A program made the translations under genes and the position numbers. A stretch of 64,000 nucleotides of DNA, from the NCBI GenBank assembly GCA_951406725.2, contig OX597817.1, positions 6,014,001 to 6,078,000 on the forward strand. Direction: 5' to 3'. Origin of the DNA: Octopus vulgaris (Eukaryota). The notes beneath the pieces were generated by a model. The model searched no databases, was not told the DNA's origin, and saw nothing but the letters and a program-made list of their open reading frames with translations. Below, piece by piece: positions 24,993 through 53,894 of this stretch; the stretch's first letter is position 1, and every line of letters starts with the position of its first letter.

Positions 24993-25049
24993 CAATATTA
25001 TAATAATAGAAATAATAATAATAATAATAATGATAATAATATTAATAAA

Positions 25050-25083
<34 letters not shown>

Positions 25084-25110
25084 TTAATAATAATAATAAG
25101 AAGAAGAATG

Positions 25111-25150
<40 letters not shown>

Positions 25151-25166
25151 GAATAATAATAATAAT

Positions 25167-25198
<32 letters not shown>

Positions 25199-25223
25199 AC
25201 AACAACAACAATAACAATAAAAA
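24993..25223. repeat. Degenerate (AAT)n/(AAC)n tract at the left edge of the satellite
   Basis: Read directly from the sequence. Confidence 0.9.
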
Positions 25224-25610
25224 TAAACATTCTCCTCAAACATTTTCATCATACATTTTCATCAAACATTTTCACCAAACATTTTCATCAAACATTATCA
25301 TCAAACATTTTCATGAAACATTTTTCATCAAACATTTTCATCAAACATTTTCATCATACATTTTCATTATAGATTTTCATCAAACATTTTCATCAAACAT
25401 TTTCATCAAACATTTTCATCATAAATTTCTGTGTATATATATATATAAATTTTCACCGAAAATTTTACCCAAAAATTTTTCGAAAATTTTCATCGTAAAT
25501 TTTACCCAAAAATTTTTCGAAAATTTTACAAATATTTTTCGAAAATTTTTGCCCAAAATTTTGCCCAAAAATTTTTCGAAAATTTTACCCAAAACTTTTC
25601 ATCAACAATT

Positions 25611-25716
25611 TGTGTGTGTGCCCGCGCGCGTATATATGAGTGTATGTGTCCGATTATGTGAATCTTAAAGGCCAGCTAAGGAGAATCATGTGTAACCAAC
25701 CATGAAGAACAAATCA
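25611..25716 (+). repeat. Cassette 2, first of six copies (others 26943-27107, 30281-30386, 31543-31709, 34206-34314, 35380-35545)
   Basis: (TG)n-cccgcgcgc...gaatcttaaaggccagctaaggagaatcat(at)gtgtaaccaaccatgaagaacaaatca, occurring once per subunit in alternating A and B variants. Confidence 0.9.
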
Positions 25717-26336
25717 GAAAAATTTTACCCAAAAATTTTCCTAAAATTTTCACCAAAAATTTTACCCAAAATTTTCACCGAAAATTTTACCCAAATATTT
25801 TTTGAAACTTTTTGCCGAAAATTTTACCCAAAAATTTTTCGAAAATTTTCATCAAAAATTTTCCCCCAATATGTGATGGTCATCAAACATTTTCATCTAA
25901 CATTTTCATCACACATTTTAATCAAACATTTTCATCAAAAATTTAATCAAACATTTTCATCAAACATTTTTCATCAAACATTTATCATCAAACATTTTCA
26001 TCAAACATTATCATCGAACATTTTCATAAAACATTTATCTGCAAACATATATCATCAAACATTTATCATCAAACATTTATATGATATATGTTTATATATC
26101 ATCAAACATTTTTCATCAAATATTTTCCTCAAACATTTATTATCAAACATTTAGCATCAAACATTTTCATCAAACATTTTCATCAAACATTTATTATCAA
26201 ACATTTATCATCAAACATTTTCATCAAACATTTTCATCAAACATTTTCAAACATTTTCATCAAACATTTTCAAACATTTTCATCATAAATTTCTGTGTAT
26301 ATATAGCGTGAATTCTGGTTTACTACTACAGTCAAG

Positions 26337-26464
26337 ATGCCTCACCATCCACGATACACCAGATTCTGCTTTACACTTAACAACTATGACGATGTCGACG
26401 TTTATAGACGTTTGATGATAAATGTTTGCATATGCCGCATATTCGTTATATGGTTTTTCAAAAA
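26337..26464 (+). pseudogene. rep: CRESS-DNA-virus-like Rep N-terminal fragment, type B (frameshifted)
   Basis: MPHHPRYTRFCFTLNNYDDVDVYR, then an 18-nt inverted Sat1 insert, then HMPHIRYMVFQK in a shifted frame. Confidence 0.65.
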
Positions 26465-29400
26465 TTTTACCCGAAAATTTTACCCAAAAATTTTTTGAAA
26501 ATTTTTACCGAAAATTTTACCCAAACATTTTTCGAAAATTCTCACCGAAAATTTTACCCAAAAATATTTCGAAAATTCTCACCGAAAATTTAACCCAAAA
26601 ATTTTTCGAAAATTTTCACAAAAAATTTTTCGAAAATTTTCACCGAATATATTTCGAAAATTTTCACCGAATATTTTCCCCAAAAATTTTTCGAAAATTT
26701 TCACCGAATATTTTAGCAAAAAATTTTTCGAAAATTTTCACCGAAAATTTTCCCCAAAAATTTTTTGAAAATTTTCACTAAAAATTTTTCGAAAATTTTC
26801 CCCAAAAATTTTTCGAAAATTTTACCCAAAAATTTTTCGAAAATTATCACCGAAAATTTTACCCAAAAGTTTTTCGAAAATTTTCACCGAAAATTTTACA
26901 CAAATATTTTTCGAAAATTTTTACCAAAAATTTTCCCCCAATATGTGAGCGTGTGTAGATTTTATATATGTGTATGTATGTGAATGTATATATGTGTGTG
27001 TGTGTGTGCCCGCGCGCGCATATATGCGTGTATGTGTCCGAGTGTTGAATCTTAAAGGCCAGCTAAGGAGAATCATATGTGTAACCAACCATGAAGAACA
27101 AATCACAGAAAAATTTTACCCAAAAATTTTCTTAAAATTTTCACCGAAAATTTTACCCGAATATTTTTCGAAACTTTTTGCCGAAAATTTTGCCCAAAAA
27201 TTTTTCGAAAATTTTACCCAGAAATTTTCACCAACAATTTTTCGAAAATTTTCACCGAATATTTTCACCAAAAACTTTCCCCGAATATGTGATGGTCATC
27301 AAACATTTTCATCTAACATTTTCATCAAACATTTATCATCAAACATTTATCATCAAACATTTTCATCAAATGTTTGATGAAAATGTTTGAGGAAAATATT
27401 TGATGAAAAATGTTTGATGATATATGTTTGAAGATAAATGTTTTATGAAATGTTCGATGATAATCATCGAACATTTTCATAAAACATTTATCTTCAAGCA
27501 TTTATCATCAGACATTTATCATCAAACATTTTCATCAAACATTTATTATGAAACAATTTCATCAAACATTTACATCAAGCATTTTTAATCAAATATTTTC
27601 ATCAAACATTTTCATCAAACATTTATCATCAAACATTTTCATCAAACATTTTCATTTAACATCTTCATCAAACATTTTCATCAGACATTATCATCTCACA
27701 TTTTCATCAAACAGTATCATCGAACATATTCATAAAACATTTATCTTCAAACATTTATCATCAAACATTTATCATCAAACATTTTCATCAAACATTTTTA
27801 TCATGAAACATTTTCATCAAACATTTTCATCAAACATTTATCATCAAACATTCTCCTCAAATATTTTCATCAAAAAATTTCCATCAAACATTTATCATCA
27901 AACATTTTCATCTAACATCTTTATCAAACATTTTCATCAAACATTTTCATCTAACATCTTCATCAAACATTTTCATCAGACATTATCATCGAACATATTC
28001 ATAAAACATTTATCTTCAAACATTTATGATCAAACATTTTCATCTAACATTTTCATCAAACATTTTAATCAAACATTTTAATCAAACAATTTCATCAAAC
28101 ATTTTCATCTAACATTTTTTATCAAACATTTTCATCAAACACTTTCATCAAACATTTTCATCAAACATTTTTCATCATATATTTATCATCAAACATTTTC
28201 ATCAAACATTTTCATCAAACATTTATTATCAAACATTTATCATCAAACATTTTCATCAAACATTTAGCATGAATCATTTTCATCAAATATTTTTCATTAA
28301 ACATTTTCATCAAACAATTATCATCAAACATTTTCATCAGACATTATCATCTCACATTTTCATGAAACATTACCATCAAACAGTATCATCGAACATATTC
28401 ATAAAACATTTATCTTCAAACATTTATCATCAAACATTTATCATCAAACATCTTCATCAAACATTTTTATCATGAAACATTTTCATCAAACATTTTCATC
28501 AAACATTTATCATCAAACATTCTCCTCAAATATTTTCATCAAAAAATTTCCATCAAACAGTATCATCGAACATATTCATAAAACATTTTTTATCAAACAC
28601 TTTCATCAAACATTTATTATCAAACATTTTCATCAAACATTTATCATCAAACATTTTCATCAAACATTTATTATCAAACATTTTCATCAAACATTTATCA
28701 TCAAACATTTTCATCAAACATTTTCATCAAACATTTTTCATGAAACATTTATCATCAAACATTTTTCATCAAACATTTATCATCAAATATTTTCATCAAA
28801 CACTTTCATCAAACATTTTCATCAAACATTTTTCATCATATATTTATCATCAAACATTTTCATCAAACGTTTTCATCAAACATTTATCATGAAACATTTT
28901 CATCAAATATGTTAAATCATCAAACATTTTCATCAAACATTTTCACCAAACTTTTCATCAAACATTTTCATCAAACATTTTCATCAAACATTTTCATCAA
29001 ACATTTTCATCAAACATTTTCATTTAACATCTTCATCAAACATTTTCATCAAACATTTTCATCAAACATTTTCATCAAATATGTTTCATTAAACATTTAT
29101 CACCAAACATTTTCATCAAACATTTTCACCAAACATTTTCATCAAACATTTTCATGAAACATTTTCATCAAATATTTTTCATTAAACATTTTCATCAAAC
29201 AATTATCATCAAACAATTATCATCAAACATTTTCATCAGACATTATCATCTCAGATTTTCATGAAACATTACCATCAAACAGTATCATCGAACATATTCA
29301 TAAAACATTTATCTTCAAACATTTATCAAACATTTATCATCAAACATTTATCATCAAACATTCTCCTCAAATATTTTCATCAAAAAATTTCCATCAAACA

Positions 29401-29781
29401 TTTATCATCAAACATTTTCATCAAACATTTTCATCAAACATTTTTCATCAAACATTTATCATCAAACATTTTCATCAAACACTTTCATCAAACATTTTCA
29501 TCAAACATTTTTCATCATATATTTATCATCAAACATTTTCATCAAACGTTTTCATCAAACATTTATCATGAAACATTTTCATCAAATATGTTTCATTAAA
29601 CATTTATCATCAAACATTTTCACCAAACGTTTTCATCAAACATTTTCATCAAACATTTTCATCAAACATTTTTCATCAAACATTTTCATCAAACATTTTC
29701 ATCAAACATTTTCATCAAACATTTTCATCATAAATTTCTCTGTATATATAGAGTGAATTCTGGTTTACTACTACAGTTAAG

Positions 29782-29895
29782 ATGCCTCACCATCCACGAT
29801 ACACCAGATTCTGCTTTACACTTAACAACTATGACGATGTCGACGTTTATAGACTTCAGCATATGCAGCATATTCTTTATATGGTTTTTCAAAAA
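29782..29895 (+). pseudogene. rep: CRESS-DNA-virus-like Rep N-terminal fragment, type A (38 intact codons)
   Basis: MPHHPRYTRFCFTLNNYDDVDVYRLQHMQHILYMVFQK. It has RCR motif I (xFTLNN) near the start Met and a YxVFQx strand at the usual spacing. It runs into Sat2 before motif II. Confidence 0.72.
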
Positions 29896-30999
29896 TTTTA
29901 CCCGAAAATTTTACCCAAAAATTTTTTTGGAAATTTTCACCGAAATTTTACACCAAAAATTCTTCGAAATTTTCACCGAAAATTTTACCCAAAAATTTTT
30001 TCGAAAATTTTTCCCGAAAATTTTACCCAAAAATTTTTCGAAAATTCTCACCGAAAATTTTACCCAAAAATTTTTCGAAAATTCTCACCGAAAATTTTCA
30101 CCAAAAATTTTTCGAAAATTTTCACCGAAAATTTTACCTAAAAATTTTTCGAAAATTTTCATCGTAAATTTTACCCAAAAATTTTTCGAAAATTTTACAC
30201 AAATATTTTTCGAAAATTTTTGCCCAAAATTTTGCCCAAAAATTTTTCGAAAATTTTACCCAAAACTTTTCATCAACAATTAGTGTGTGTGCCCGCGCGC
30301 GTATATATGAGTGTATGTGTCCGATTATGTGAATCTTAAAGGCCAGCTAAGGAGAATCATGTGTAACCAACCATGAAGAACAAATCAGAAAAATTTTACC
30401 CAAAAATTTTCCTAAAATTTTCACCAAAAATTTTACCCAAAATTTTCACCGAAAATTTTACCCAAATATTTTTTGAAACTTTTTGCCGAAAATTTTACCC
30501 AAAATTTTTCGAAAATTTTCATCAAAAATTTTCCCCCAATATGTGATGGTCATCAAACATTTTCATCTAACATTTTCATCACACATTTTAATCAAACATT
30601 TTCATCAAAAATTTAATCAAACATTTTCATCAAACATTTTTCATCAAACATTTATCATCAAACATTTTCATCAAACATTATCATCGAACATTTTCATAAA
30701 ACATTTATCTTCAAATATTTTCATGAAACATTTATCTTCAAACATATATCATCAAACATTTTTCATCAAATAATTTCCTCAAACATTTATTATCAAACAT
30801 TTTCATCAAACATTTATCATCAAACATTTTCATCAAACATTTTCATCAAACATTTATTATCAAACATTTATCATCAAACATTTTCATCAAACATTTTCAT
30901 CAAACATTTTCAAACATTTTCATCAAACATTTTCAAACATTTTCATCATAAATTTCTGTGTATATATAGCGTGAATTCTGGTTTACTACTACAGTCAAG

Positions 31000-31127
31000 A
31001 TGCCTCACCATCCACGATACACAAGATTCTGCTTTACACTTAACAACTATGACGATGTCGACGTTTATAGACGTTTGATGATAAATGTTTGCATATGCCG
31101 CATATTCGTTATATGGTTTTTCAAAAA
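31000..31127 (+). pseudogene. rep: Rep N-terminal fragment, type B
   Basis: ORF 31000 (motif I) plus ORF 31089 (HMPHIRYMVFQK). Confidence 0.65.
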
Positions 31128-33720
31128 TTTTACCCGAAAATTTTTCGAAAATTCTCACCGAAAATTTTACTCAAAAATTTTTCGAAAATTCAAACCGAAA
31201 ATTTTACCCAAAAGTTTTTCGAAAATTTTCACAAAAAATTTTTCGAAAATTTTCACCGAATATTTTCCCCAAAAATTTTTCAAAAATTTTCACCGAAAAT
31301 TTTCACCGAATATTTTAGCAAAAAATTTTTCGAAAATTTTCACCGAAAATTTTACCCAAAAATTTTTCGAAAATTTTCACTAAAAATTTTTCGAAAATTT
31401 TCCCCAAAAATTTTTCGAAAATTTTACCCAAAAATTTTTCAAAAATTTTCACCGAAACTTTTACCCAAAAGTTTTTCGAAAATTTTCACCGAAAATTTTA
31501 CACAAATATTTTTCGAAAATTTTTACCAAAAATTTTCCCCCAATATGTGAGCGTGTGTAGATTTTATATATGTGTATGTATGTGAATGTATATATGTGTG
31601 TGTGTGTGTGCCCGCGCGCGCATATATGCGTGTATGTGTCCGAGTGTTGAATCTTAAAGGCCATCTAAGGAGAATCATATGTGTAACCAACCATGAAGAA
31701 CAAATCACAGAAAAATTTTACCCAAAAATTTTCTTAAAATTTTCACCGAAAATTTTACCCAGAAATTTTCACCAACAATTTTTCGAAAATTTTCACCGAA
31801 TATTTTCACCAAAAATTTTCCCCCAATATGTGATGGTCATCAAAAATTTTCATCTAACATTTTCATCATACATTTTAATCAAACATTTTCATCAAAAATT
31901 TAATCAAACATTTTCATCAAACATTTTCATCAAACATTTTTCATCAAACATTTTCATCAAACATTTATCATCAAACATTTATCATCAAACATTTTCATCA
32001 AATGTTTGAGGAAAATATTTGAGGAAAATATTTGATGAAAAATGTTTGATATATGTTTGAAGATAAATGTTTTATGAAATGTTCGATGATAATCATCGAA
32101 CATTTTCATAAAACATTTATCTTCAAGCATTTTTCATCAAATATTTTCCTCAAACATTTTCATCAAGCATTTATTATCAAATATTTTCATCAAACATTTA
32201 CATCAAATATTTTCATCAAACATTTTCATCAGACATTATCATCTCACATTTTCATCAATCAGTATCATCGAACATATTCATAAAACATTTATCTTCAAAC
32301 ATTTATCATCAAACATTTATCATCACACATCTTCATCAAACATTTTTATCATGAAACATTTTCATCAAACATTTTCATCAAACATTTATCATCAAACATT
32401 CTCCTGAAATATTTTCATGAAACATTTCCATCAAACAGTATCATCGAACATATTCATAAAACATTTTTTATCAAACACTTTCATCAAACATTTATTATCA
32501 AACATTTTCATCAAACATTTTCATCAAACATTTTCATCAAACTTTTATCATCAAGCATTTTCCTCAAACGTTTTCATCAAACATTTTCATGAAACATTTT
32601 CATGAAATATTTTTCATTAAACATTTTCATCAAACAATTATCATCAAACATTTTCATCAGACGTTATCATCTCAGATTTTCATGAAACATTACCATCAAA
32701 CAGTATCATCGAACATATTCATAAAACATTTATCTTCAAACATTTATCCTCAAACATTTATCATCAAACATTTTCATCAAACATTTTTATCATGAAACAT
32801 TTTCATCAAACATTTTCATCAAACATTTATCATCAAACATTCTCCTCAAATATTTTCATCAAAAAATTTCCATCAAACATTTTTCATCAAACATTTTCAT
32901 CAAACATTTTTCATCAAACATTTATCATCAAACATTTTCATCAAATACTTTCATCAAACATTTTCATCAAACATTTTTCATCATATATTTATCATCAAAC
33001 ATTTTCATCAAACGTTTTCATCAAACATTTATCATGAAACATTTTCATCAAATATTTTTCATTAAACATTTTCATCGAACAATTATCATCAAACATTTTC
33101 ATCAGACATTATCATTTCACATTTTCATGAAACATTACCATCAAACAGTATCATCGAACATGTTCATATAACATTTATCTTCAGACATTTATCATCAAAC
33201 ATTTTCATCTAACATTTATCATGAAACATTTTCATCTAACATTTTCATCAAACGTTTTCATCAAACATTTTTATCATGAAACATTTTCATCAAACATTTT
33301 CATCAAACATTTATCATCAAACATTTATCATGAAACATTTTCATCAAACATTTTCATCAAACATTTATCATCAAACATTTATCATGAAACATTTTCATCA
33401 AACATTTTTATCATGAAACATTTTCATCAAACATTTTCATCAAACATTTATCATCAAACATTCTCCTCAAATATTTTCATCAAAAAATTTCCATCAAACA
33501 TTTATCATCAAACATTTTCATCAAACATTTCATCAAACATTTTTCATCAAACATTTATCATCAAACATTTTCATCAAATACTTTCATCAAACATTTTCAT
33601 CAAACATTTTTCATCATATATTTATCATCAAACATTTTCATCAAACATTTTCATCAAACATTTTCATCATAAATTTCTCTGTATATATAGAGTGAATTCT
33701 GGTTTACTACTACATTTAAG

Positions 33721-33834
33721 ATGCCTCACCATCCACGATACACCAGATTCTGCTTTACACTTAACAACTATGACGATGTCGACGTTTATAGACTTCAGCA
33801 TATGCAGCATATTCTTTATATGGTTTTTCAAAAA
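33721..33834 (+). pseudogene. rep: Rep N-terminal fragment, type A
   Basis: Same 38 aa as 29782-29895. Confidence 0.72.
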
Positions 33835-34957
33835 TTTTACCCGAAAATTTTACCCAAAAATTTTTTGGAAATTTTCACCGAAAATTTACACCAAAAATTC
33901 TTCGAAATTTTCAACGAAAATTTTACCCAAAACTTTTTCGAAAATTTTTCCCGAAAATTTTACCCAAAAATTTTTCCAAAATTCTCACCGAAAATTTTCA
34001 CCAAAAATTTTTCGAAAATTTTCCCTAAAAATTTTTCGAAAACTTTTACCGAAAATTTTACCCAAAAATTTATCGAAAATTTTCATCGTAAATTTTACCC
34101 AAAAATTTTTCGAAAATTTTACACAAATATTTTTCGAAAATTTTTGCCCAAAATTTTGCCCAAAAATTTTTCGAAAATTTTACCCAAAACTTTTCATCAA
34201 CAATTTGTGTGTGTGCTTGCGCGCGTATATATGAGTGTATGTGTCCGATTATGTGAATCTTAAAGGCCAGCTAAGGAGAATCATATGTGTAACCAACCAT
34301 GAAGAACAAATCACAAAAATTTTACCCAAAAATTTTCCTAAAATTTTCACCAAAAATTTTACCCAAAATTTTCACCGAAAATTTTACCCAAATATTTTTT
34401 GAAACTTTTTGCCGAAAATTTTACCCAAAAATTTTTCGAAAATTTTCATCAAAAATTTTCACCCAATATGTGATGGTCATCAAACATTTTCATCTAACAT
34501 TTTCATCACACATTTTAATCAAACATTTTCATCAAACATTTTTCATCAAACATTTATCATCAAACATTTTCATCAAACATTATCATCGAACATTTTCATA
34601 AAACATTTATCTTCAAACATTTATCATCAAACATTTATCTTCAAACATATATCATCAAACATTTTTCATCAAATATTTTCCTCAAACATTTATTATCAAA
34701 CATTTATCATCAAACATTTTTCATCAAATATTTTCCTCAAACATTTATTATCAAACATTTATCATCAAACATTTTCATCAAACATTTTCATCAAACATTT
34801 ATTATCAAACATTTATCATCAAACATTTTCATCAAACATTTTCATCAAACATTTTCATCAAACATTTTCAAACATTTTCATCAAACATTTTCAAACATTT
34901 TCATCATAAATTTCTGTGTATATATAGCGTGAATTCTGGTTTACTACTACAGTCAAG

Positions 34958-35085
34958 ATGCCTCACCATCCACGATACACAAGATTCTGCTTTACACTTA
35001 ACAACTATGACGATGTCGACGTTTATAGACGTTTGATGATAAATGTTTGCATATGCCGCATATTCGTTATATGGTTTTTCAAAAA
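34958..35085 (+). pseudogene. rep: Rep N-terminal fragment, type B
   Basis: ORF 34958 (motif I) plus ORF 35047 (HMPHIRYMVFQK). Confidence 0.65.
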
Positions 35086-36750
35086 TTTTACCCGAAAATT
35101 TTTCAAAAATTCTCACCGAAAATTTTACTCAAAAATTTTTCGAAAATTCTCACCGAAAATTTTACCCAAAAATTTTTAGAAAATTTTCACAAAAAATTTT
35201 CCGAAAATTTTCACCGAATATATTTCGAAAATTTTCACCGAATATTTTCCCCCAAAATTTTTCGAAAATTTTCACTGAAAATTTTCACCGAATATTTTAG
35301 CAAAAAATTTTTCGAAAATTTTCACCGAAAATTTTACACAAATATTTTTCGAAAATTTTTACCAAAAATTTTCCCCTAATATGTGAGCGTGTGTAGATTT
35401 TATATATGTGTATGTATGTGAATGTATATATGTGTGTGTGTGTGTGCCCGCGCGCGCATATATGCGTGTATGTGTCCAAGTGTTGAATCTTAAAGGCCAG
35501 CTAAGGAGAATCATATGTGTAACCAACCATGAAGAACAAATCACAGAAAAATTTTACCCATAAATTTTCTTAAAATTTTCACCGAAAATTTTACCCGAAT
35601 ATTTTTCGAAACTTTTTGCCGAAAATTTTGCCTAAAAATTTTTCGAAAATTTTACCCAGAAATTATCACCAACAATTTTCGAAAATTTTCACCGAATATT
35701 TTCACCAAAAACTTTCCCCCAATATGTGATGGTCATCAAACATTTTCATCTAACATTTTCATCATACATTTTTCATCAAACATTTTAATCAAACATTTAT
35801 CATCAAACATTTATCATCAAACATTTTCATCAAATGTTTGATGAAAATATTTGAGGAAAATATTTGATGAAAAATGTTTGATATATGTTTGAAGATAAAT
35901 GTTTTATGAAATGTTCGATGATAATCATCGAACATTTTCATAAAACATTTATCTTCAAGCATTTATCATCAGACATTTATCATCAAACATTTTCATCAAA
36001 CATTTATTATGAAACAATTTCATCAAACATTCACATCAAGCATTTTTCATCAAATATTTTCCTCAAACATTTTCATCAAACATTTATTATCAAATATTTT
36101 CATCAAACATTTTCATCAAATATTTTCATCAAACATTTTCATCAGACATTATCATCTCACATTTTCATGAAACAGTATCATCGAACATATTCATAAAACA
36201 TTTATTTTCAAACATTAATCATCAAACATTTATCATCAAACATTTTCATCAAACATTTTTATCATGAAACATTTTCATCAAACATTTTCATCAAACATTT
36301 ATCATCAAACATTCTCCTCAAATATTTTCATCAAAAAATTTCCATCAAACATTTATCATCAAACATTTTCATCTAACATCTTTATCAAACATTTTCATCA
36401 AACATTTTCATCTAACATCTTCATCAAACATTTATCTTCAAACATTTATCATCAAACATTTATCATCAAACATTTTTATCATGAAACATTTTCATCAAAC
36501 ATTTTCATCAAACATTTATCATCAAACATTCTCCTTAAATATTTTCATAAAATAATTTCCATCAAACAGTATCATCGAACATATTCATAAAAAATTTTTT
36601 ATCAAACACTTTCATCAAACATTTATTATCAAACATTCTCATCAAACATTTTTCATCAAACATTTATCATCAAACATTTTCATCAAACATTTTCATCAAA
36701 CATTTACCATCAAACATTTTCATCAATTTCTTTCATCAAACATTTTCATC

Positions 36751-36850
36751 NNNNNNNNNNNNNNNNNNNNNNNNNNNNNNNNNNNNNNNNNNNNNNNNNN
36801 NNNNNNNNNNNNNNNNNNNNNNNNNNNNNNNNNNNNNNNNNNNNNNNNNN
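36751..36850. other. Assembly gap (100 N)
   Basis: Run of 100 n characters; the true gap size is unknown. Confidence 1.
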
Positions 36851-39800
36851 TAAACATTTATCATCAAATATTTTCACCAAACGTTTTCATCAAACATTTT
36901 CATCAAACATTTTCATCAAACTTTTATCATCAAGCATTTTCCTCAAACGTTTTCATCAAACATTTTCATGAAACATTTTCATCAAATATTTTTCATCAAA
37001 CATTTTCATCAAACATTTTCATCAAACATTTTCATCAAACATTTTTATCATGAAACATTTTCCTCAAACATTTTCATCATATTTATCATCAAACATTCTC
37101 CTCAAATATTTTCATTAAACATTTTCATCAAACAATTATCATCAAACATTTTCATCAGACATTATCATCTCAGATTTTCATGAAACATTACCACCAAACA
37201 GTATCATCGAACATATTCATAAAACATTTATCTTCAAACATTTATCCTCAAACATTTATCATCAAACATTTTCATCAAACTTTTTTATCATGAAACATTT
37301 TCATCAAACATTTTCATCAAACATTTATCATCAAACATTCTCCTCAAATATTTTCATCAAAAAATTTCCATCAAACATTTATAATCAAACATTTTCATCA
37401 AACATTTTCATCAAACATTTTCATCAAATACTTTCATCAAACATTTTCATCAAACATTTTTCATCATATATTTATCATCAAACATTTTCATCAAAAGTTT
37501 TCATCAAACATTTATCATGAAACATTTTCATCAAATATTTTTCATTAAACATTTTCATCGAACAATTATCATTTCATCAGACATTATCATCTCACATTTT
37601 CATGAAACATTACCATCAAACAGTATCATCGAACATGTTCATATAACATTTATCTTCAGACATTTATCATCAAACATTTTCATCTAACATTTATCATGAA
37701 ACATTTTCATCTAACATTTTCATCAAACGTTTTCATCAAACATTTTTATCATGAAACATTTTCATCAAACATTTATCATCAAACATTCTCCTCAAATATT
37801 TTCATCAAACAAATTTCATCAAACATTTTCATCAAACATTTATCATCAAACATTTTCATCAAACATTTTCATCAAACATTTTTTATCAAACATTTATCAT
37901 CAAACATTTTTATCAAACACTTTCATCAAACATTTTCATCAAACATTTTTCATCATATATTTATCATCAAACATTTTCATCAAACGTTTTCATCAAACAT
38001 TTATCATGAAACATTTTCATCAAACATGTTTCATTTATCATCAAACATTTTCACCAATACGTTTTCATCAAACATTTTCATCAAACATTTTCATCAAACT
38101 TTTATCATCAAACATTTTCATCAAACATTTTTATCAAACATTTTTCATGAAACATTTTCATCAAATATTTTTCATGAAAATCATTTTCATCAAACATTTT
38201 CATCAAACATTTTTATCATGAAACATTTTCATCAAACATTTTTCATCAAACATTTTCATCAAACATTTTCATCAAACATTTTTTATCAAACACTTTTACA
38301 TCAAACATTTATTATCAAACATTTTTCCATCAAACATTTATCATCAAACATTTCATCAACATTTTCATCAGACAATTTTTCATCAAACATTTTCATCAAA
38401 CATTTTCATCAAACATTTCATCAAACATTTTCATCAAACATTTTCATCATATTTTATGAACATTTTCATCAAAACATTTTTCATCAAACATTTTCATCAA
38501 ACATTTTCATCAAACATTTTCATCAACATTTTCAAAACATTTTCATCAACATTTTTCATCAAACATTTATCATGAAATATTTTCACCAAACATTTTCATC
38601 AAACATTTTCATCAAACATTTTTCATCAAACATTTTTATCATCAAGCATTTTCATCAAACATTTTTCACATTTTCATCAGACAAACATTTTCATCAAACA
38701 TTTTCATCAAATATTTTTCATCAAACATTTTCATCAAACATTTTCATCAAACATTTTCATCAAACATTTTTATCATGAAACATTTTCATCAAACATTTTC
38801 ATCGAACATTTATCATCAAACATTCTCCTCAAACATTTTCATCAAACATTTTCATCAAACAATTATCATCAAACATTTTCATCAGACATTATCATCTCAA
38901 ACATTTTCATGAAACATTTTCATCAAACATTTTCATCAAACATATTTTTCATAAAACATTTATCTTCAACATTTATCATCAAACATTTATCATCAAACAT
39001 TTCCATCAAACATTTTTCATCAAACATTTATCATCAAACATTTTTCATCAAACATTTATCATCAAACATTCTCCTCATATATTTTAATAAAAAATTTCCA
39101 TCAAACATTTATAATCAAACATTTTCATCAAACATTTTCATCAAACATTTTTAAACTTTTATCATCAAGCATTTTCATCAAACATTTTCATCAAACATTT
39201 TCATCAAACATTTTTCATCATATATTTATCATCAAACATTTTCATCAAAAGTTTTCATCAAACATTTATCATCAAACATTTTCATCAAATATTTTTCATT
39301 AAACATTTTCATCGAACAATTATCATCAAACATTTTCAAACATTATCATCTCAAACATGAAACATTACCATCAAACAGTATCATCGAACATGTTCATGTA
39401 ACATTTATCAAGACATTTATCATCAAACATTTTCATCTAACATTTATCATGAAACATTTTCATCAAACATTTTCATCAAACGTTTTCATCAAACATTTTT
39501 ATCATGAAACATTTTCATCAAACATTTATCATCAAACATTCTCCTCAAATATTTTCATCAAAAAATTTCCATCAAACATTTATCATCAAACATTTTCATC
39601 AAACATTTTCATCAAACATTTTCATCAAACATTTATCATCAAACATTTTCATCAAACACTTTCATCAAACATTTTCATCAAACATTTTTCATCATATATT
39701 TATCATCAAACATTTTCATCAAACGTTTTCATCAAACATTTATCATGAAACATTTCATCAAACATTTTCATCAACAATTTCATCGACATTTTCATGAAAC

Positions 39801-42800
39801 ATTTTCATCAAACATTTTTCATCAAACATTTTTATCAAACATTCATCAAACATTTTCATCAAACATTTTCATCAAACATTTTCATCATTTTTATCAAACA
39901 TTTTCATCAAACATTTTCATCAAACATTTTCATCAAACATTTTCATCAAACATTTTCATGAAACATTTTCATCAAACATTTTTCATCAAACATTTTATCA
40001 TGAAACATTTTCATCAAACATTTTCATCAAACATTTATCATCAAACATTCTCCTCAAATATTTTCATTAAACATTTTCATCAAATAATCATCATCAAACA
40101 TTTTCATCAGACATTACCATCTCAGATTTTCATGAAACATTACTATCAAACAGTATCATCGAACATATTCATAAAACATTTATCTTCAAACATTAATCCT
40201 CAAACATTTATCAAACATTTTCATCGAACATTTTTATCATGAAACATTTTCATCAAACATTTTCATCAAACATTTATCATCAAACATTCTCTTCAAATAT
40301 TTTCATCAAAAAATTTCCATCAAACATTTATCATCAAACATTTTTCATCAAGACATTTATCATCAAACATTTTCATCAAATCATTTTCATCAAACATTTT
40401 CATCAAACATTTCATCAAACATTTTCATCAACATTTTCATCAACATTTTAATCAAACATTTTCATCAAGCATTTTCTGAAAACATTTTCATCAAACATTT
40501 TCATCAAACATTTTCATCAAACATTTTCATCAAACATTTTCCATCAAACATTTTCATCAAACATTTTCATGAAAAATTTTCATCAAACATTTTTCATTAA
40601 ACATTTTCATCAAACATTTATCATCAAAAATTTTCATCAAACATTTTCATCAGACATTTTCATCATCTTAACATTTTCATCAAACATTTTTCCATCAAAC
40701 ATTTTCATCAAACATTTTCATCAAACATTTTTCATCAAACATTTTCATCAAACATTTTCATCAAACATTTTCATCAAACATTTTTATCATGAAACATTTT
40801 CATCAAACATTTTCATCAAACATTTTCATCAAACATTTTCAAAACATTTTTATCAAACATTTTCATCAAACATTTATCATCAAACATTTTCATCAAACAT
40901 TTTCATCAAACATTTTCATCAAACATTTTCATCAAACATTTTTCATCAAACATTTTCATCATCATCAACATTTCATCAAACATTTTCATCAAACATTTTC
41001 ATCAAACATTTTCATCAAATATTTATCATCAAACATTTTCATCAAACATTTCATCAAACATTTATCATGAAACATTTTCATCAAATTTTTTTCATTAAAC
41101 ATTTATCATCAAATATTTTCACCAAACGTTTTCATCAAACATTTTCATCAAAGATTTTTCATCATATATTTATCATCAAGCATTTTCCTCAAACGTTTTC
41201 ATCAAACATTTTCATCAAACATTTTCATCAAACATTTTCATCAAACATTTTCATCAAACATTTTTCATCAAACATTTTCATCAAACATTTTTATCATCAA
41301 ACATTTTCATCAAACATTTTCATCGAACATTTATCATCAAACATTCTCCCCAAATATTTTCATTAAACATTTTCATCAAACAATTATCATCAAACATTTT
41401 CATCAAACATTTCATCTCATTTTCATGAAACATTACCATCAAACAGTTTCATCGAACATATTCATAAAACATTTATCTTCAAACATTTATCCTCAAACAT
41501 TTATCATCAAACATTTTCATCAAACTTTTTTATCATGAAACATTTTCATCAAACATTTTCATCAAACATTTATCATCAAACATTCTCCTCAAATATTTTC
41601 ATCAAAAAATTTCCATCAAACATTTATCATCAAACATTTTCATCAAACATTTTCATCAAACATTTTTCATCAAACATTTATCATCAAACATTTTCATCAA
41701 ATACTTTCATCAAACATTTTCATCAAACATTTTCATCATATATTTATCATCAAACATTTTCATCAAACATTTTTCATCAAACATTTATCATGAAACATTG
41801 TTCATCAAACATTTTCATCATTTTCAAACATTCATCAAATATTTTCATTAAACATTTTCATCAAACATTTTCATCAAACATTTTCATCAAACATTTTCAT
41901 CAAACATTTTCATGAAACATTTTCATCAAACATTTTCATCAAACATTTTCATCAGACAATTTCATCATTTTCATCAAACAATTTCATCACACATTTATCA
42001 TCAAACATTTTCACCAAATCAAATATTTTCGTTTTTCATCAAACATTTTCATCAAACATTTTCATCAAACATTTTATCAAACATTTTCATCAAACGTTTT
42101 CATCAAACATTTTCATGAAACATTTTCATCAAATATTTTTCATCAAACATTTTCATCAAACATTTTCATCAAACATTTTCATCAAACATTTTTATCATGA
42201 AACATTTTCATCAAACATTTTCATCATCAAACATTTATCATCAAACATTTTCATCAAATATTTCAGACATATTTACCAAACATTTTCATCAAACAATTAT
42301 CATCAAACATTTTCATCAAACATTTCATCATCAAACATTTTCATCAAACATTTTCATCAAACATTTTCATCAAACATTTTCATAAAACATTTTCAAACAT
42401 TTATCATCAAACATTTATCATCAAACATTTTCATCAAACATTTTTATCATGAAACATTTTCATCAAACATTTTCATCAAACATTTTCATCAAACATTCAT
42501 CATGAAACATCAAATATTTTCATCAAAAAAATTTTCCATCAAACATTTATAATCAAACATTTTCATCAAACATTTTCATCAAACATTTTCATCAAAAATT
42601 TATCATCAAACATTTTCATCAAATACTTTCATCAAACATTTTCATCAAACATTTTTCATCATATATTTATCATCAAACATTTTCATCAAAAGTTTTCATC
42701 AAACATTTATCATGAAACATTTTCATCAAATATTTTTCATTAAACATTTTCATCGAACAATTATCATCAAACATTTTCATCAGACATTATCATCTCACAT

Positions 42801-45800
42801 TTTCATGAAACATTACCATCAAACAGTATCATCGAACATGTTCATATAACATTTATCTTCAAACATTTATCATCAAACATTTTCATCTAACATTTATCAT
42901 CAAACATTTTCATCTAACATTTTCATCAAACATTTTCATCAAACATTTTTATCATGAACATTTTCATCAAACATTTTCATCATCAAACATTTCTCCTCAA
43001 ATATTTTCATCAAACATTTCCATCAAACATTTATCATCAAACATTTTCATCAAACATTTTCATCAAACATTTTTTCATCAAACATTTATCATCAAACATT
43101 TTCATCAAACACTTTCATCAAACATTTTCATCAAACATTTTTCATCATATATTTATCATCAAACATTTTCATCAAACGTTTTCATCAAACATTTATCATG
43201 AAACATTTTCATCAAATATGTTTCATTTATCATCAAATATTTTCACCAAACGTTTTCATCAAACATTTTCATCAAAGATTTTTCATCATATATTTATCAT
43301 CAAGCATTTTCCTCAAACGTTTTCATCAAACATTTTCATGAAACATTTTCATCAAATATTTTTCATCAAACATTTTCATCAAACATTTTCATCAAACATT
43401 TTTATCATGAAACATTTTCATCAAACATTTTCATCAAACATTTATCATCAAACATTCTCCTCAAATATTTTCATTAAACATTTTCATCAAACAATTATCA
43501 TCAAACATTTTCATCAGACATTTTCATCAAACAGATTTTCATCAAACATTTTCATCAAACATTTTCATCGAACATTTTCATCAAACATTTATCATCAAAC
43601 ATTTTCATCAAACATTTTCATCAAACATTTTCATCAAACATTTTTATCATGAAACATTTTCATCAAACATTTTCATCAAACATTTATCATCAAACATTCT
43701 CTTCAAATATTTTCATCAAAAAATTTCCATCAAACATTTATCATCAAACATTTTTCATCAAACATTTATCATCAAACATTTTCATCAAACATTTTCATCA
43801 AATATGTTTCATTAAACATTTATCACCAAACATTTTCATCAAACATTTTCATCAACAACGTTTTCATCAAACATTTTCATCAAACATTTTTTCATCAAAC
43901 ATTTTTCATCAGACAAACATCATCAAAATATTTTCATTTTCATCAAACTCAAATATTTCAGAAATTTTCATCAAACGTATTTTCATCAGACATTTTCAGG
44001 AATTTTCAAAACATTTATCATGACAAACATTTTCTGTCAAACATTTCATCAAACATTTTCATCAGAAATTTTCATCAAAATGACATTTTTTTTGTATTTT
44101 TCATTTCATCAAAAATTTTCATTTTCTCATCAAACATTTTCCTCATTAAACATTTTCATCAAACAATTTTCATCAAATAATTATCATCAAACATTTTCAT
44201 CAGACATTATCATCTTAGATTTTCATGAAACATTACCATCAAACATTATCATCAAACATTTTTCATCAAACATTTATCGTAACATTTTCAAACATTTTCA
44301 TCAAACATTTTCATCAAACATTTTCATCAGACATTTTCATCAAACATTTTCATCAACATTTTTATTTTACTATCAAACATTTTCATCAAACATTTTCATC
44401 AAACATTATCAAATATTTTCAAACATATTCACAATATTTTCAAACATTTTCATCAAACATTTTTCATCAAACATTTATCATCAAACATTTTCATCAAACA
44501 TTTATCATCAAACATTTTCATCAAACATTTTCATCAAACATTTTTTCATCAAACATTTATCATCAAACATTTTCATCAAATATTTTAATTAAGCATGTTC
44601 ATCTAAAATTTTCATAAATATTTTCATCAAACATTTTCATCAAACAAATTCATCAAATATTTATCATCAAACATTTTCATCAAACGTTTTCATCAAACAT
44701 TTATCATGAAACATTTTCATCAAATTTTTTTCATTAAACATTTATCATCAAACATTTTCACCAAACGTTTTCATCAAACATTTTCATCAAACATTTTCAT
44801 CAAACTTTTATCATCAAGCATTTTCCTCAAACGTTTTCATCAAACATTTTCATGAAACATTTTCATCAAATATTTTCATCAAACATTTTCATCAAACATT
44901 TTCATCAAACATTTTCATCAAACATTTTTATCATGAAACATTTTCATCAAACATTTTCATCGAACATTTATCATCAAACATTCTCCTCAAATATTTTCAT
45001 TAAACATTTTCATCAAACATTTATCATCAAACATTTTCATCAAATTATTTTCTCAAATATTTTCATCAAACATTACCATCAAACAAATTTCATCAAACAT
45101 TTTCATCAAACATTTTCATCAAACATTTATCATCAAACATTTATCATTTTCAAAAACATTTTCATCAAACATTTTTTATCATGAAACATTTTCATCAAAC
45201 ATTTTCATCAAACATTTATCATCAAACATTCTCTTCAAATATTTTCATCAAAAAAATTTCCATCAAACATTTATCATCAAACATTTTCATCAAACATTTT
45301 CATCAAACATTTTTTCATCAAACATTTATCATCAAACATTTTCATCAAATACTTTCATCAAACATTTTCATCAAACATTTTTCATCATATATTTATCATC
45401 AAACATTTTCATCAAACGTTTTCATCAAACATTTTCATGAAACATTTTCATCAAATATTTTTCATCAAACATTTTCATCAAACAATTTTCATCAAACATT
45501 TTCATCAACATTATCATCTCACATTTTCATCAAATTACATCAAACATTATCATCAAACATTTCATATAACATTTATCATCAAACATTTATCATCAAACAT
45601 TTTCATCAAACATTTTCATCAAACATTTTCATCAAACATTTTCATCAAACATTTTCATCAAACATTTTTATCATGAAACATTTTCATCAAACATTTATCA
45701 TCAAACATTTTCATCAAATATTTTCATCAAACATTTCCATCAAACATTTATCATCAAACATTTTCATCAAACATTTTCATCAAACATTTTTTATCAAACA

Positions 45801-48800
45801 TTTATCATCAAACATTTTTATCAAACACTTTCATCAAACATTTTTCACATATTTATCATCAAACATTTTCATCAAACGTTTTTATCAAACATTTATCATG
45901 AAACATTTTCATCAAATATTTTCATCAAACATTTTTATCATTTTTCATCACATTTTCATCAAACATTTTCATCATGATAATTTCATCAAACATTTTCATC
46001 AAACATTTTCATCAAATATTTTCATGAAACATTTTCATCAAACAATTTTCATCAAACATTTTTATCAAACATTATCATCAACCATTTCATCAATCATTTT
46101 CATCAAACATTTTCATCAAACATTTTCATCAAACATTTTCATCAAACATTTTCATCAAACATTTCCATCAAACAATTTCATCAAACATTTCTATCAAACA
46201 TTTTCATCAAACATTTCCATCAAACATTTATCAAACAAATTCAATATTCATCAAACATTTCTCATTATTTTCATCTGACATTTTCATCAAACATTTTCAA
46301 ATATTTTCATTTTCGAAACATTTTCAACATTTTAATCAATCATCAAACATTAAAACATTTTCATCAAAAATTTTCATCAAATATTTATCAAATATTTTCA
46401 TCAGAACATTTTCATCAAACATTTTCATCAACATTTATCATCAAACATTTTCATCAAATATTTTAATCATTATCCAAATTCATCAAACATTTTCATCAAA
46501 CATTTTCATCAAACATTTTCATCAAACATTTTGTATCAGGACATTTTCATCAAACATTTTCAAATATTTTCATCAAACATTCTCTCTCAAACAATTTCAT
46601 CAAACATTTTTCATCAAACATTTTCATCAAACATTTTCATCAAACATTTTCATCAAACATTTTCATCAAACACCATTTCATCAAACATTTTCATCAAACA
46701 TTTTCATCAAACATTTTCATCAGACATTTTCATCAAACATTTTCATCAAACATTTTCATCAAACATTTAACATCAAACATTTTCATCAAACATTAATCAT
46801 CAAACATTTTCATCAAACATTTTCAAACATGAATCATGAAACATTACTCCTCAAGCTAAACATTTTTATCAAACATTTATCATCAAACATTTTCATCAAA
46901 ATTTTCATCAAACATTTTTCATCAAACATTTTCATCAAACTTTATCATGGTAAAGCATTTTCATCAAAATTTTCATCAAATATTTTCATCAAACATTTTC
47001 ATCAAACATTTTCATTAAACATTTTCATCAAACATTTTCATCAAACATTTATCATCAAACATTTTCATCAAACATTTATCATCTGTAGATTTTCATCAAA
47101 CATTTTCATCAACATTTCATGACATCATCGACATTTTCATCAAACATTTTCATCAAACATTTATCATCAAACATTTTCATCAAACATTTTCATCAAACAT
47201 TTTTATCATGAAACATTTTCATCAAACATTTTCATCAAACATTTATCATCAAACATTTTCATCAAACATTTTCATCAAACATTTTCATCAAACATTTTCA
47301 TCAAACATTTCATCAAACATTTTCATCAAACATTTTCATCAAACATTTTCATCAAACATTTTCATCAAACATTTTCATCAATATTTTCATCAAACATTTT
47401 CATCAAACAATTTCATCAAACATTTTCATCAAACATTTTCATCAAACATTTTCATCCCTGAACATTTTTCATCAAACATTTTCAATCAAATATTTTCATC
47501 AAACATTTTCATCAAATATTTTCATCAAACATTTTTATCATCAATGCATTTTCATCAAACATTTTCACAATACATTTCATCAAAATTTTCATCAACATTT
47601 TCATCAAATATTTTCATCAAACATTTCATCAAACATTTTCATCAAACATTTTCATCAAACATTTTTATCCCATCAAACATTTTCATCAAACATTTTCATC
47701 AAACATTTTCATCAAACATTTTCATCAAACACTTTCATCAAACATTTTCATCAAACATTTTTCATCATATATTTATCATCAAACATTTTCATCAAACATG
47801 TTTCATCAAACATTAATCATCAAACATTTTCATCAAATATTTTCATTAAACATTTTCATCAAACATTTTCATCAAACATTTTCATCAAACATTTCATCAA
47901 AGATTTTTTCATCATATTTTAATCCAGCATTTTCATCAAACATTTTCATCAAATATTTTTCATCAAACATTTTCATCAAATATTTTCATCAAACATTTTC
48001 ATCAAACATTTTCATCAAACATTTTCATCAAACATTTTTATCAAACATTTTTCATCAAACATTTTCATCAACATTTTCATCAAACATTCTCCTCAAATAT
48101 TTTCATCAAACATTTTCATCAAACATTTATCATCAAACATTTTCATCAGACAACCCTATCATCAAACAGATTTCAAAACATTTTCATCAAACATTTTCAT
48201 CAAACATTTTCATCAAAACATTTATCATCAAACATTTATCATCAAACATTTTCATCAAACATTTTCATCAAACATTTTCATCAAACATTTTCATCAAACA
48301 TTTTCATCAAACATTTATCATCAAACATTTTCATCAAATATTTTCATCAAACATTTTCATCAAACATTTTCATCAAACATTTTCATCAAACATTTTCATC
48401 AAACATTTTCATCAAACATTTATCATCAAACATTTATCATCAAATATTTTTCATCAAACATTTTCATCAAACATTTTCATCAAAATTTCCATCAAACATT
48501 TTCATCAAACATATTCATCAAACATTTATCATGAAACATTTTCATCAAATATTTTTCATCGAACATTTTCATCAAACATTTTCATCAAACAATTATCATC
48601 AAACATTATCATCTCACATTTTCATGAAACATTTTCATCAAACATTTTCAAGACAATTTTCATCAAACATATTTCATCAGAACCTGAATTTCACTCAAAC
48701 ATTTAATCAAACAGTTTCATCAAACATTTTCAAATAATTTCATGAAACATTCTCCTCTAACAATTTCATCAAACATTTTTGGCATCAAACATTTATCATC

Positions 48801-49734
48801 GTTATCATAACATATTTTCATCAAACATTTTCATCAAACATTTTCATCAAGCATTTTTCATCAAACATTTTTATCAAACATTGTCATCATGAATATTTTC
48901 ATCAATCATTTTCATCAAACATTTTCATCAAACATTTTCATCAAACATTTTTATCATCAAATATTTTCATCAAACATTTTCATCAAACATTTTTATCAAG
49001 ACATTTTCATCAAACATTTTCATCAAACATTTTCATCAAACATTTTCATCAAACATTTTCATCAAACATTTATCATCAAACATTTTCATCAAACATTTTC
49101 ATCAAACATTTTCATCATATATTTATCATCAAACCATTTTCATCAAACATTTTCATCAAACATTTATCATCAAACATTTTCATCAAACATTTCCATCAAA
49201 CATTTATCATCATCATTGTCATTTCAAACATTTTCATCCAGACATTTTCATCAAACATTTTCATCAAACTATTTATCATCAAATGATTTTCCTCAAACGT
49301 TTTCATCAAACATTTACATCAAACATTTTCATCAAATATTTTCAACAGACATCATTGAAACATTTTATCATCAAACATTTTCATCAAACATTTTTCATCA
49401 TCAAACATTTTCATCAAACATTTTCATCAAACATTTATCATCAAACATTCTCCTCAAATATTTTCATCAAACATTTTTATCAAACAATTTCATCAAACAT
49501 TTTCATCAAACATTTTTCATCGTTATTTTACTCATCATATTTCATCAAACATTTTCATCAGTATTTTTATCATTTACATTTATCATAGAAATTTCATCAA
49601 ATGATATTCATGAAACATTTTCGTCAAACATTTATCAAACATTTTCATCCTCAAACATTTATCATCAAACATTTTCATCAAACATTTTTATCATGAAACA
49701 TTTTCATCAAACATTTTTCATCAAACATTTATCA

Positions 49735-51970: not shown

Positions 51971-52040
<70 letters not shown>

Positions 52041-53617: not shown

Positions 53618-53620
<3 letters not shown>

Positions 53621-53715
<95 letters not shown>

Positions 53716-53762
53716 TATTATCATTATCATTATTATTAATATTATTATTATTATTATTAATA

Positions 53763-53808
<46 letters not shown>

Positions 53809-53894
53809 CATCATCATTATCATTATCCTTATAATAACATTGTCATTATCATTATTATTATGATTTGTATTATTATTATTTTTATTATTATTAT
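53621..53894. repeat. (ATT)n tract at the right edge of the satellite
   Basis: Read directly from the sequence. Confidence 0.95.

What the first reader, a model, noticed from the sequence alone, without database searches (positions are those of the whole stretch)
26285..35085. Five copies of a CRESS-DNA virus Rep N-terminus built into a satellite higher-order repeat
Seen: a ~165-180 bp non-satellite cassette recurs with ATG at 26337, 29782, 31000, 33721 and 34958. A sixth copy at 25421-25446 is deleted down to its leader. Type A encodes MPHHPRYTRFCFTLNNYDDVDVYRLQHMQHILYMVFQK and then runs into Sat2. Established: circovirus/nanovirus-like HUH Reps begin with basic residues, then motif I (W/F)xFTLNN, an acidic helix and a YxV(F/Y)(Q/G)xE strand just before motif II (xHxQG). 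Inference: an endogenised ssDNA-virus (or Rep-encoding element) fragment became part of a satellite unit and was amplified with it. Rolling-circle replication may even have seeded the array. The fragment lacks motifs II/III and the helicase, so it cannot be an active Rep.
Basis: partly seen in the sequence, partly recalled or inferred. Interest (0 to 1): 0.9.

Follow-up and report, generated by a model that had tools for sequence, protein, structure and literature searches.

The report
Virus gene fragment riding octopus satellite
A short, broken piece of the replication gene of a small circular-DNA virus sits inside a satellite repeat of this octopus genome in about 230 scattered copies, likely captured once and then copied passively with the satellite rather than by any viral activity.

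Summary
Confirmed and larger than reported. The five window copies (plus a leader-only sixth) are a TATA-like leader and the first 35 codons of a CRESS-DNA virus Rep. The peptide alone is weak against Pfam Viral_Rep (E 0.017), but is 63% identical to a complete Rep endonuclease domain elsewhere in the same genome (Viral_Rep E 5e-23). The genome also holds a more-than-unit-length CRESS integration (origin hairpin, broken Rep, capsid-like gene) and other Rep and capsid relics, whose helicases form one octopus-associated clade. The cassette is not local: 232 hits at 34 sites on 13 contigs, 202 ending at one breakpoint fused to the 37-bp satellite Sat2. Copies drift neutrally (pN/pS 0.88), whereas divergence from the other Rep is mostly synonymous. 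Sat1 and the ~4-kb higher-order repeat are specific to this window. The satellite occurs at many Rep-free sites, the cassette has no nick site, and the arrays have no fixed ends, so 'rolling circle seeded the array' is unsupported. Best reading: a dead viral passenger spread by satellite turnover. Closest precedent: geminivirus-related DNA repeats in tobacco. I found no report for cephalopods.

The parts
25420..25446 (+). Sixth copy, leader only (TA run), joined directly to Sat2
26290..26455 (+). Viral cassette, type B: TATA-like leader, ATG 26337, Rep codons 1-35 interrupted by an inverted Sat1 patch at 26410-26427
29735..29886 (+). Viral cassette, type A: leader, ATG 29782, Rep codons 1-35 with motif I (FTLNN), fused to Sat2
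30953..31118 (+). Viral cassette, type B (ATG 31000; inverted Sat1 patch from 31073)
33674..33825 (+). Viral cassette, type A (ATG 33721)
34911..35076 (+). Viral cassette, type B (ATG 34958; inverted Sat1 patch from 35031)
26456..26936 (+). Sat2 block (37-bp unit and 24/25-bp variants) directly after the cassette; like blocks at 29887-30271, 31119-31540, 33826-34197, 35077-35375 and shorter ones after each spacer
26941..27107 (+). Spacer taken from another dispersed host repeat (184 candidates genome-wide); long form also at 31543-31710 and 35379-35546, short form at about 25603-25716, 30274-30388, 34198-34313
25225..49735 (+). Sat1 array (13/14-bp unit) that hosts the Sat2-cassette units in its first 10.5 kb; assembly gap at 36751-36850; short inverted tracts at about 27368-27450, 32000-32090, 35832-35920
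25420..36750 (+). Local higher-order repeat: three units of [type A cassette-Sat2-spacer-Sat2-short Sat1]-[type B cassette-Sat2-spacer-Sat2-long Sat1], period about 3.9-4.7 kb

Best explanation
The cassette is a non-coding relic of a CRESS-DNA virus Rep gene (leader plus 35 codons) fused at one fixed point to the host satellite Sat2 and present in about 230 copies at 34 sites, likely captured once from an integrated virus and then likely spread passively by the satellite's own turnover. Steps: (1) shown: viruses of one octopus-associated CRESS lineage entered the germ line several times (L021, L099, L190, L200-L203). (2) Inferred: Sat2, which pastes short patches into unrelated DNA, landed in or beside one such integration, cutting Rep at codon 35-36 and leaving leader plus 5' Rep between satellite blocks. 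(3) Shown: that unit was multiplied in tandem and dispersed with Sat2 and the 32-bp repeat, decaying neutrally. (4) Inferred: dispersal was by recombination-type processes (extrachromosomal circles or repair-templated copying), since there are no fixed ends or target-site duplications. (5) Shown for this window: a Sat2-cassette piece joined a Sat1 array, took up an inverted Sat1 patch and a piece of another repeat, and was recently re-duplicated as a ~4-kb higher-order unit. It makes no functional Rep.
For: 63% aa and 70% nt identity to the full HUH domain at L021; among 598 sequences the 36-aa peptide scored best against L021, P0156, P0006 and then a free CRESS contig L119 (the L099 row was out of frame there and scored 90). 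Against L021: dN 0.27, dS 1.9, differences 0.32/0.14/0.47 by codon position; among 102 gap-free copies: 0.107/0.102/0.108, pN/pS 0.88, 27 with stops, and 23 of 28 gapped copies frameshifted. 202 of 232 hits end at nt 105-108, and Sat2 follows in the same orientation in 180 of 186 oriented cases; Sat2-like DNA lies within 40 nt in 101 of 102. Only 2 of the 19 sites in the first 100 listed matches (of 266) of the 32-bp repeat carry the cassette; the other 17, all fetched, have Sat2 but no Rep or leader. L228 shows a Sat2 patch pasted into the spacer repeat with the same junction as in this window. End words shared across arrays average 4.55 letters against 4.66 for mismatched pairs. Logan contigs of four organism labels cover all 27 bins, and listed pieces bridge the Rep-Sat2 joint in X2, X5 and X6.
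Against: The direct parent integration was not found: no copy continues past codon 36, and searches for the downstream part of the domain returned only L021 and L099. The order 'satellite first, virus captured' rests on the satellite's wider spread; loss of the cassette from most arrays is not excluded. Within-array identity (0.921) barely exceeds between-array identity (0.901), so the timing of dispersal is unresolved. The dispersal mechanism is inferred only from the absence of transposon hallmarks. No listed contig piece (32 of 5,644 shown) bridges the Sat1-leader joint of this window, and X3's listed pieces do not bridge the Rep-Sat2 joint by the tool's 31-letter rule.
Confidence: 0.8

Rival explanations
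1. Virus-assisted spread: a defective virus-host minicircle (partial origin, leader, 5' Rep, satellite DNA) was copied in trans by the Rep of an infecting virus, and its concatemers integrated at many sites.
For: The leader of other copies resembles one arm of the origin hairpin and the GCT-type repeats beside it at L201 (3 of 1000 shuffles reach the score for the L004 leader). Virus-host minicircles are documented for a geminivirus (PMC6293997, abstract). Repeated germ-line entry of this lineage is shown.
Against: The same test gave 82/1000 (L007 leader) and 70/1000 (window leader), and nothing against L099 or L021. No nonanucleotide hairpin in any cassette array; the one other stem-flanked match lies inside palindromic Sat2. 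Leaders do not fold better than shuffles. Rep-free Sat2 arrays are dispersed just as widely.
Confidence: 0.08
2. The leader-Rep-Sat2-32-bp modules are the inside of a non-autonomous rolling-circle transposon (Helitron/Helentron- or Replitron-like) that carries tandem repeats, as in oysters.
For: Short dispersed arrays (median block 2.1 kb) recall Helitron-borne satellites of Crassostrea gigas (PMC8268682, passages). Modules keep a fixed order and orientation.
Against: Arrays start and end in any module at variable positions, with no shared terminal box and no target-site duplication. The Rep piece groups with viral Reps that have a helicase and capsid in the same genome, not with transposases. 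End calls were automated and approximate.
Confidence: 0.07
3. The array grew out of the viral sequence itself: Sat2 arose by tandem amplification of Rep sequence at the breakpoint, later losing the cassette at most sites.
For: The first Sat2 letters loosely align with L021 just after codon 35.
Against: That score is reached by 5% of shuffles, 17% of windows of viral contigs and 24% of windows of the octopus relics. Sat2 subunits resemble Sat1 (10 of 13 letters), pointing to a host satellite family. None of 16 viral-relic loci has Sat1, Sat2 or the 32-bp repeat nearby.
Confidence: 0.04
4. Chance peptide in low-complexity DNA, or an assembly artefact.
For: Pfam score of the peptide alone is below the cut-off; an assembly gap lies close by.
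Against: E 4e-18 to L021 with codon-structured divergence; 77 exact 21-mers genome-wide against 0 for the reversed control; present in independent runs.
Confidence: 0.01

Closest known systems
Geminivirus-related DNA (GRD3/GRD5/GRD53) of Nicotiana
   Same: Degenerate, truncated rep plus intergenic DNA of a circular ssDNA virus, in multiple direct repeats, evolving neutrally, with purifying selection between separate integrations (PMC5014472, passages; the original GRD papers were not read).
   Different: GRD keeps an origin-like sequence and is clustered on one or two chromosomes; here the host is an animal, the virus is not a geminivirus, the nick site is absent, the piece is fused to a host satellite and dispersed to 34 sites on 13 contigs.
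Endogenous circoviral/CRESS elements of invertebrates
   Same: Rep-derived relics of uncharacterised CRESS lineages, reported in bivalves and gastropods (PMC6069186, passages); usually under 10 copies, about 60 in salmon louse and Varroa (PMC3198968, passages).
   Different: About 230 copies from one capture, multiplied by a satellite; cephalopod host (0 mentions of octopus or cephalopod in the main text of PMC6069186); capsid-like relics and origins are also present here, while that study found no new cap-derived elements.
Dispersed short satellite arrays carried by Helitrons (Crassostrea gigas)
   Same: Short arrays scattered over many chromosomes in a mollusc (PMC8268682, passages).
   Different: No conserved terminal boxes were found here; the captured spacer is viral.
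Replitrons
   Same: Eukaryotic repeats with an HUH Rep related to CRESS Reps (PMC10288648, passages).
   Different: Replitrons encode a whole transposase and have short terminal direct repeats; this cassette has only motif I and no defined ends.

Membership tests
Endogenous element derived from a CRESS-DNA virus Rep | Homology to the Rep HUH domain (motif I region) | tested here: met
   Viral_Rep E 0.017 alone; 63% identity to L021, Viral_Rep E 5e-23; L021 matches solved circovirus-type replicase chains, best E 1.8e-14
Endogenous element derived from a CRESS-DNA virus Rep | Integrated in host chromosomes and drifting neutrally | tested here: met
   34 sites with host flanks; pN/pS 0.88, stops and frameshifts
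Endogenous element derived from a CRESS-DNA virus Rep | Source is a virus (origin hairpin, helicase, capsid in relatives) rather than a transposon | tested here: met
   L099: hairpin with TAGTATTAC (z -4.6), Rep 5' end 89 bp downstream, helicase frame and an opposite-strand Arg-rich ORF. The capsid call rests on position and composition; it has no Pfam match
Functional CRESS Rep / autonomous replicon | Motifs II and III and SF3 helicase | tested here: not met
   No cassette copy extends past codon 36
Functional CRESS Rep / autonomous replicon | Origin hairpin with nonanucleotide | tested here: not met
   None at any cassette; leaders fold no better than shuffles
Circoviridae (or any named CRESS family) | Rep phylogeny with named reference members | tested here: inconclusive
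   Quick helicase tree (53 rows) gives an octopus clade, SH-aLRT 98, but holds only two named viral rows, one on a very long branch
GRD-like tandem viral repeat | Truncated rep in multiple direct repeats | tested here: met
GRD-like tandem viral repeat | Origin-like sequence in each unit | tested here: inconclusive
   Resemblance to one hairpin arm at L201 reaches 3/1000, 70/1000 and 82/1000 shuffles for three leaders; no nonanucleotide
Non-autonomous Helitron/Helentron or Replitron | Conserved termini, terminal hairpin or direct repeats, precise target site | tested here: not met
   Ends of 38 non-edge blocks fall in any module; shared end words equal the null
Non-autonomous Helitron/Helentron or Replitron | Autonomous partner sharing the ends | not tested
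   No search for RepHel or Replitron transposases was run
Satellite higher-order repeat | Multi-module unit repeated at higher identity than its parts | tested here: met
   Unit halves 95-98% identical; window cassettes 0.976 mean identity against 0.90 family-wide. Local to this window
piRNA-producing antiviral EVE | Transcription and small RNAs | not testable with these tools
   Only assembled contigs could be laid

The most novel reading that the evidence does not exclude
A satellite-borne viral promoter-plus-Rep fragment is an octopus antiviral memory or a virus-mobilised repeat: the 230 copies are transcribed into small RNAs against a still-circulating octopus CRESS virus, or were spread in trans by that virus's Rep acting on a half-origin, making infection a driver of satellite dispersal in an animal genome.
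Probability: 0.12. Interest if true: 0.88.

Novelty: new variant of a known kind. Interest (0 to 1): 0.58.

Why it matters
It is a clear case of a non-retroviral virus fragment reaching high copy number in an animal genome by hitch-hiking on a host satellite, with a single datable breakpoint that can serve as a lineage tag for how short satellite arrays jump between chromosomes. It also points to an apparently undescribed CRESS-DNA virus lineage that has repeatedly infected octopus germ lines (Rep, capsid-like and origin relics; a relative labelled Octopus bimaculoides), which assigns a host to otherwise host-less marine CRESS sequences and offers fossil calibration points.

Tried and rejected
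Pfam RNA_helicase (PF00910) search of the genome: 0 matches of 24 candidates; the helicase relics were found only with the genome's own frame as query, so that blank was a sensitivity limit. Sat2 arising from Rep sequence: not supported. Translated match of the 32-bp repeat or Sat2 to the viral relics: none at E 1. L021 as a naturally helicase-free Rep: rejected, it is a ~410-bp piece that replaced ~39 bp of a Merlin-like transposase copy and a relative (P0034) continues past its end. Flanking inverted repeats around the whole window array: only common repeats. Full-length close relative in databases: none above about 52% identity in the HUH domain among longer proteins or 50% in 80 viral contigs. 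Summed contig depths are not used as copy numbers. The careful tree did not finish; the quick tree is reported. Earlier scan findings: none. PMC40128 was not held. Literature searches that found no report of cephalopod CRESS elements or of a CRESS fragment in an animal satellite: (listings and abstracts' starts only); supplements of the screening papers were not examined and could list octopus hits.
Full report
OBSERVATION. The window holds a Sat1 array (13/14-bp unit, 25225-49735) with Sat2 blocks (37-bp unit) in its first 10.5 kb. Five cassette copies have ATG at 26337, 29782, 31000, 33721 and 34958; a sixth at 25420-25446 is leader only. Type A (161 bp) reads 35 viral codons and then Sat2; type B (175 bp) has an 18-nt inverted Sat1 patch after codon 24 that shifts the frame. 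Cassettes, Sat2, a spacer and Sat1 form a unit of about 3.9-4.7 kb in three copies whose halves are 95-98% identical. A 100-N gap at 36751-36850 follows.

IS IT A REP? The 38-aa peptide hits one Pfam family, Viral_Rep, at E 0.017, under the cut-off. A search of the genome with that family found one strong locus, L021 (1 match of 3 candidates, E 1.3e-19): a 104-aa frame with motifs I, II and III (motif names from my own knowledge), Viral_Rep E 5e-23, matching 8 solved replicase sequences and 8,588 library proteins. The window peptide is 24/38 identical to it (E 4e-18) and the DNA 70% identical. Over 102 gap-free copies the differences from L021 are 0.32/0.14/0.47 per site at codon positions 1/2/3 (dN 0.27, dS 1.9), the mark of divergence under purifying selection, while among copies they are 0.107/0.102/0.108 (pN/pS 0.88), with 27 stop-bearing copies, and 23 frameshifts among 28 gapped copies. 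So the two descend from different functional Reps and the cassette has drifted since.

IS THE SOURCE A VIRUS? A scan for origin hairpins in the fetched stretches found one at L099, 89 bp upstream of another Rep start (fold z -4.6). L099 is a 2.3-kb integration with a ~170-bp terminal direct repeat, a Rep broken by a large internal loss, a helicase frame and an opposite-strand Arg-rich ORF; that ORF has no Pfam match, so 'capsid-like' rests on position and composition. Its Rep start is 14/22 identical to the cassette, and database protein P0034 links the L021-type domain to the L099-type middle region. With these frames as queries the genome gave 10 helicase matches of 14 candidates and 6 capsid-like matches of 13; none of 16 such loci has Sat1, Sat2 or the 32-bp repeat nearby. 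Database proteins identical to two of these frames are labelled Octopus vulgaris and a relative Octopus bimaculoides. In a quick tree of 53 helicase rows (the named rows plus the 45 best of 167 eligible) the octopus rows and one unnamed protein form a clade with SH-aLRT 98; named references are too few to assign a family. L021 is a separate ~410-bp capture that replaced ~39 bp of a Merlin-like transposase.

GENOME-WIDE ANATOMY. DNA and protein searches showed the cassette on many contigs. In 41 fetched stretches plus the window there are 232 hits in 40 sources, which I count as 34 sites on 13 contigs. An exact 21-mer occurs 77 times genome-wide (control 0); 75 lay in the first 40 stretches plus the window and the other 2 in L217, so the census of the assembly is nearly complete. 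202 hits end at nt 105-108 of the frame, and Sat2 follows in the same orientation in 180 of 186 oriented cases. No copy runs on into motifs II/III, and the downstream half of the closest database relative finds only L021. Elsewhere the unit is a ~100-bp leader, the Rep piece, variable Sat2 and often a 32-bp repeat. Sat1 appears in only 2 of the other 41 stretches, apart from the arrays. Mean identity is 0.921 within and 0.901 between arrays; the window copies are 0.976 alike (137 copies), so the local unit is young relative to the family.

WHICH CAME FIRST? The 32-bp repeat has 266 exact 30-mers; of the 19 sites in the first 100 listed, 2 are cassette sites. The other 17 were fetched: all carry Sat2, none carries Rep or leader. 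The window's other spacer is a piece of a separate dispersed repeat (40 matches scored of 184 candidates), and at L228 a Sat2 patch is pasted into that repeat with the same junction as in the window. Sat2 thus captures neighbours of any kind. Array ends (38 non-edge blocks) fall in any module, and words shared by the two ends average 4.55 letters against 4.66 for mismatched pairs: no fixed termini, no target-site duplication. No cassette has a nonanucleotide hairpin. Two ideas favouring a viral driving role were tested: Sat2 as amplified Rep sequence (5-24% of controls score as well) and the leader as a half-origin (3, 70 and 82 of 1000 shuffles for three leaders against L201; nothing against L099 or L021). 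The first is unsupported, the second is a weak lead.

INDEPENDENT DATA. 20 of 24 listed runs, from 10 studies and five organism labels, hold part of the stretch. Four runs (labels A-D) were laid: all cover all 27 bins, and listed contig pieces bridge the Rep-Sat2 joint by at least 31 letters each side in X2, X5 and X6, not in X3; none of the 32 pieces shown (of 5,644) bridges this window's Sat1-leader joint. The cassette-Sat2 fusion is therefore real and shared across labels; whether the labels are distinct species is not known to me.

MECHANISM. Shown: repeated germ-line entry of one CRESS lineage; one fixed Rep-Sat2 breakpoint; tandem and dispersed multiplication; neutral decay; recent local re-duplication with Sat1. 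Inferred: capture by a Sat2 patch at an integrated virus, and dispersal by recombination-type routes such as extrachromosomal circles or repair-templated copying (general satellite biology from my own knowledge; one search gave a search listing only). Confidence 0.8 overall, lower for the dispersal route.

KNOWN SYSTEMS. It works like the GRD repeats of Nicotiana (truncated rep, direct repeats, neutral drift; PMC5014472, passages) but lacks their origin, is fused to a host satellite and is dispersed. It belongs with invertebrate endogenous CRESS elements (PMC6069186 and PMC3198968, passages) but at several times their usual copy number. It fails the terminal-feature tests for Helitron-borne satellites (PMC8268682, passages) and Replitrons (PMC10288648, passages). 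Searches returned no paper on cephalopod CRESS elements or on such a fragment in an animal satellite; the library lacks most subscription journals and I did not see the supplements of the screening papers. Automated annotation already names one helicase frame as a replication-associated protein.

VERDICT. Real, viral in origin, non-functional, a passenger rather than the seed of the satellite. New variant of a known kind; interest 0.58, raised by the single traceable breakpoint and by the octopus CRESS lineage it exposes.

Noticed in passing
L099:4805-7125 (G000:C15 about 38111800-38114120): More-than-unit-length CRESS integration: ~170-bp terminal direct repeat (90% identical) each with an origin hairpin, a Rep frame broken by a large internal loss that includes motif II, and an opposite-strand Arg-rich capsid-like ORF.
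   Followed up: partly
L021:1383-1794 (G000:C14 about 64337730-64338140): Leader plus whole Rep HUH domain (104 aa, motifs I-III) inserted in a Merlin/IS1595-like transposase copy, replacing about 39 bp; the host copy is 98% identical to a neighbour 4 kb away, so the capture looks recent.
   Followed up: yes
L190/L204 (C11), L201 (C12), L200 and L202 (C31), L203 (C6), L191-L198: Further relics: 10 Rep-helicase matches and 6 capsid-like matches. At L201 the capsid-like gene is on the nonanucleotide strand, at L099 Rep is, so two genome arrangements are represented.
   Followed up: partly
P0352/P0253, P0255, P0006/P0156, P0034: Database relatives of the same lineage: one labelled Octopus bimaculoides, others unnamed Logan proteins; P0006/P0156 are closest to the cassette's first 25 residues and lose the frame after about residue 33.
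   Followed up: partly
P0256, P0260, P0353-P0355: Related Reps on long ENA contigs (99-508 kb), possibly endogenous elements of another host.
   Followed up: no
L207-L224 and most cassette arrays: A 32-bp G+C-richer tandem repeat accompanies Sat2 genome-wide (266 exact 30-mers) but is absent from this window.
   Followed up: partly
L228:1140-1440: A Sat2 patch replaces the left part of a dispersed host repeat, with the same junction as the window's long spacer: a second capture by the same satellite.
   Followed up: partly
window 49735-53621: Patchwork of short Sat1 patches between unrelated 50-600-bp segments, including a duplicated ~580-bp segment (about 50190-50770 and 52320-52770) with a SINE-like part.
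   Followed up: no
window 25000-25226 and 53620-53894: The Sat1 region is bracketed by (AAT)n and (ATT)n microsatellites in inverted orientation; no other shared flank was found.
   Followed up: partly
L007 and L009/L087: A MITE-like element with long (~130-bp) inverted arms sits directly upstream of the cassette leader at the same point at two loci.
   Followed up: no
L119 (viral contig, 2253 bases): Free CRESS contig whose Rep start scores highest among viral contigs against the cassette peptide; helicase of the same general type but distant.
   Followed up: partly
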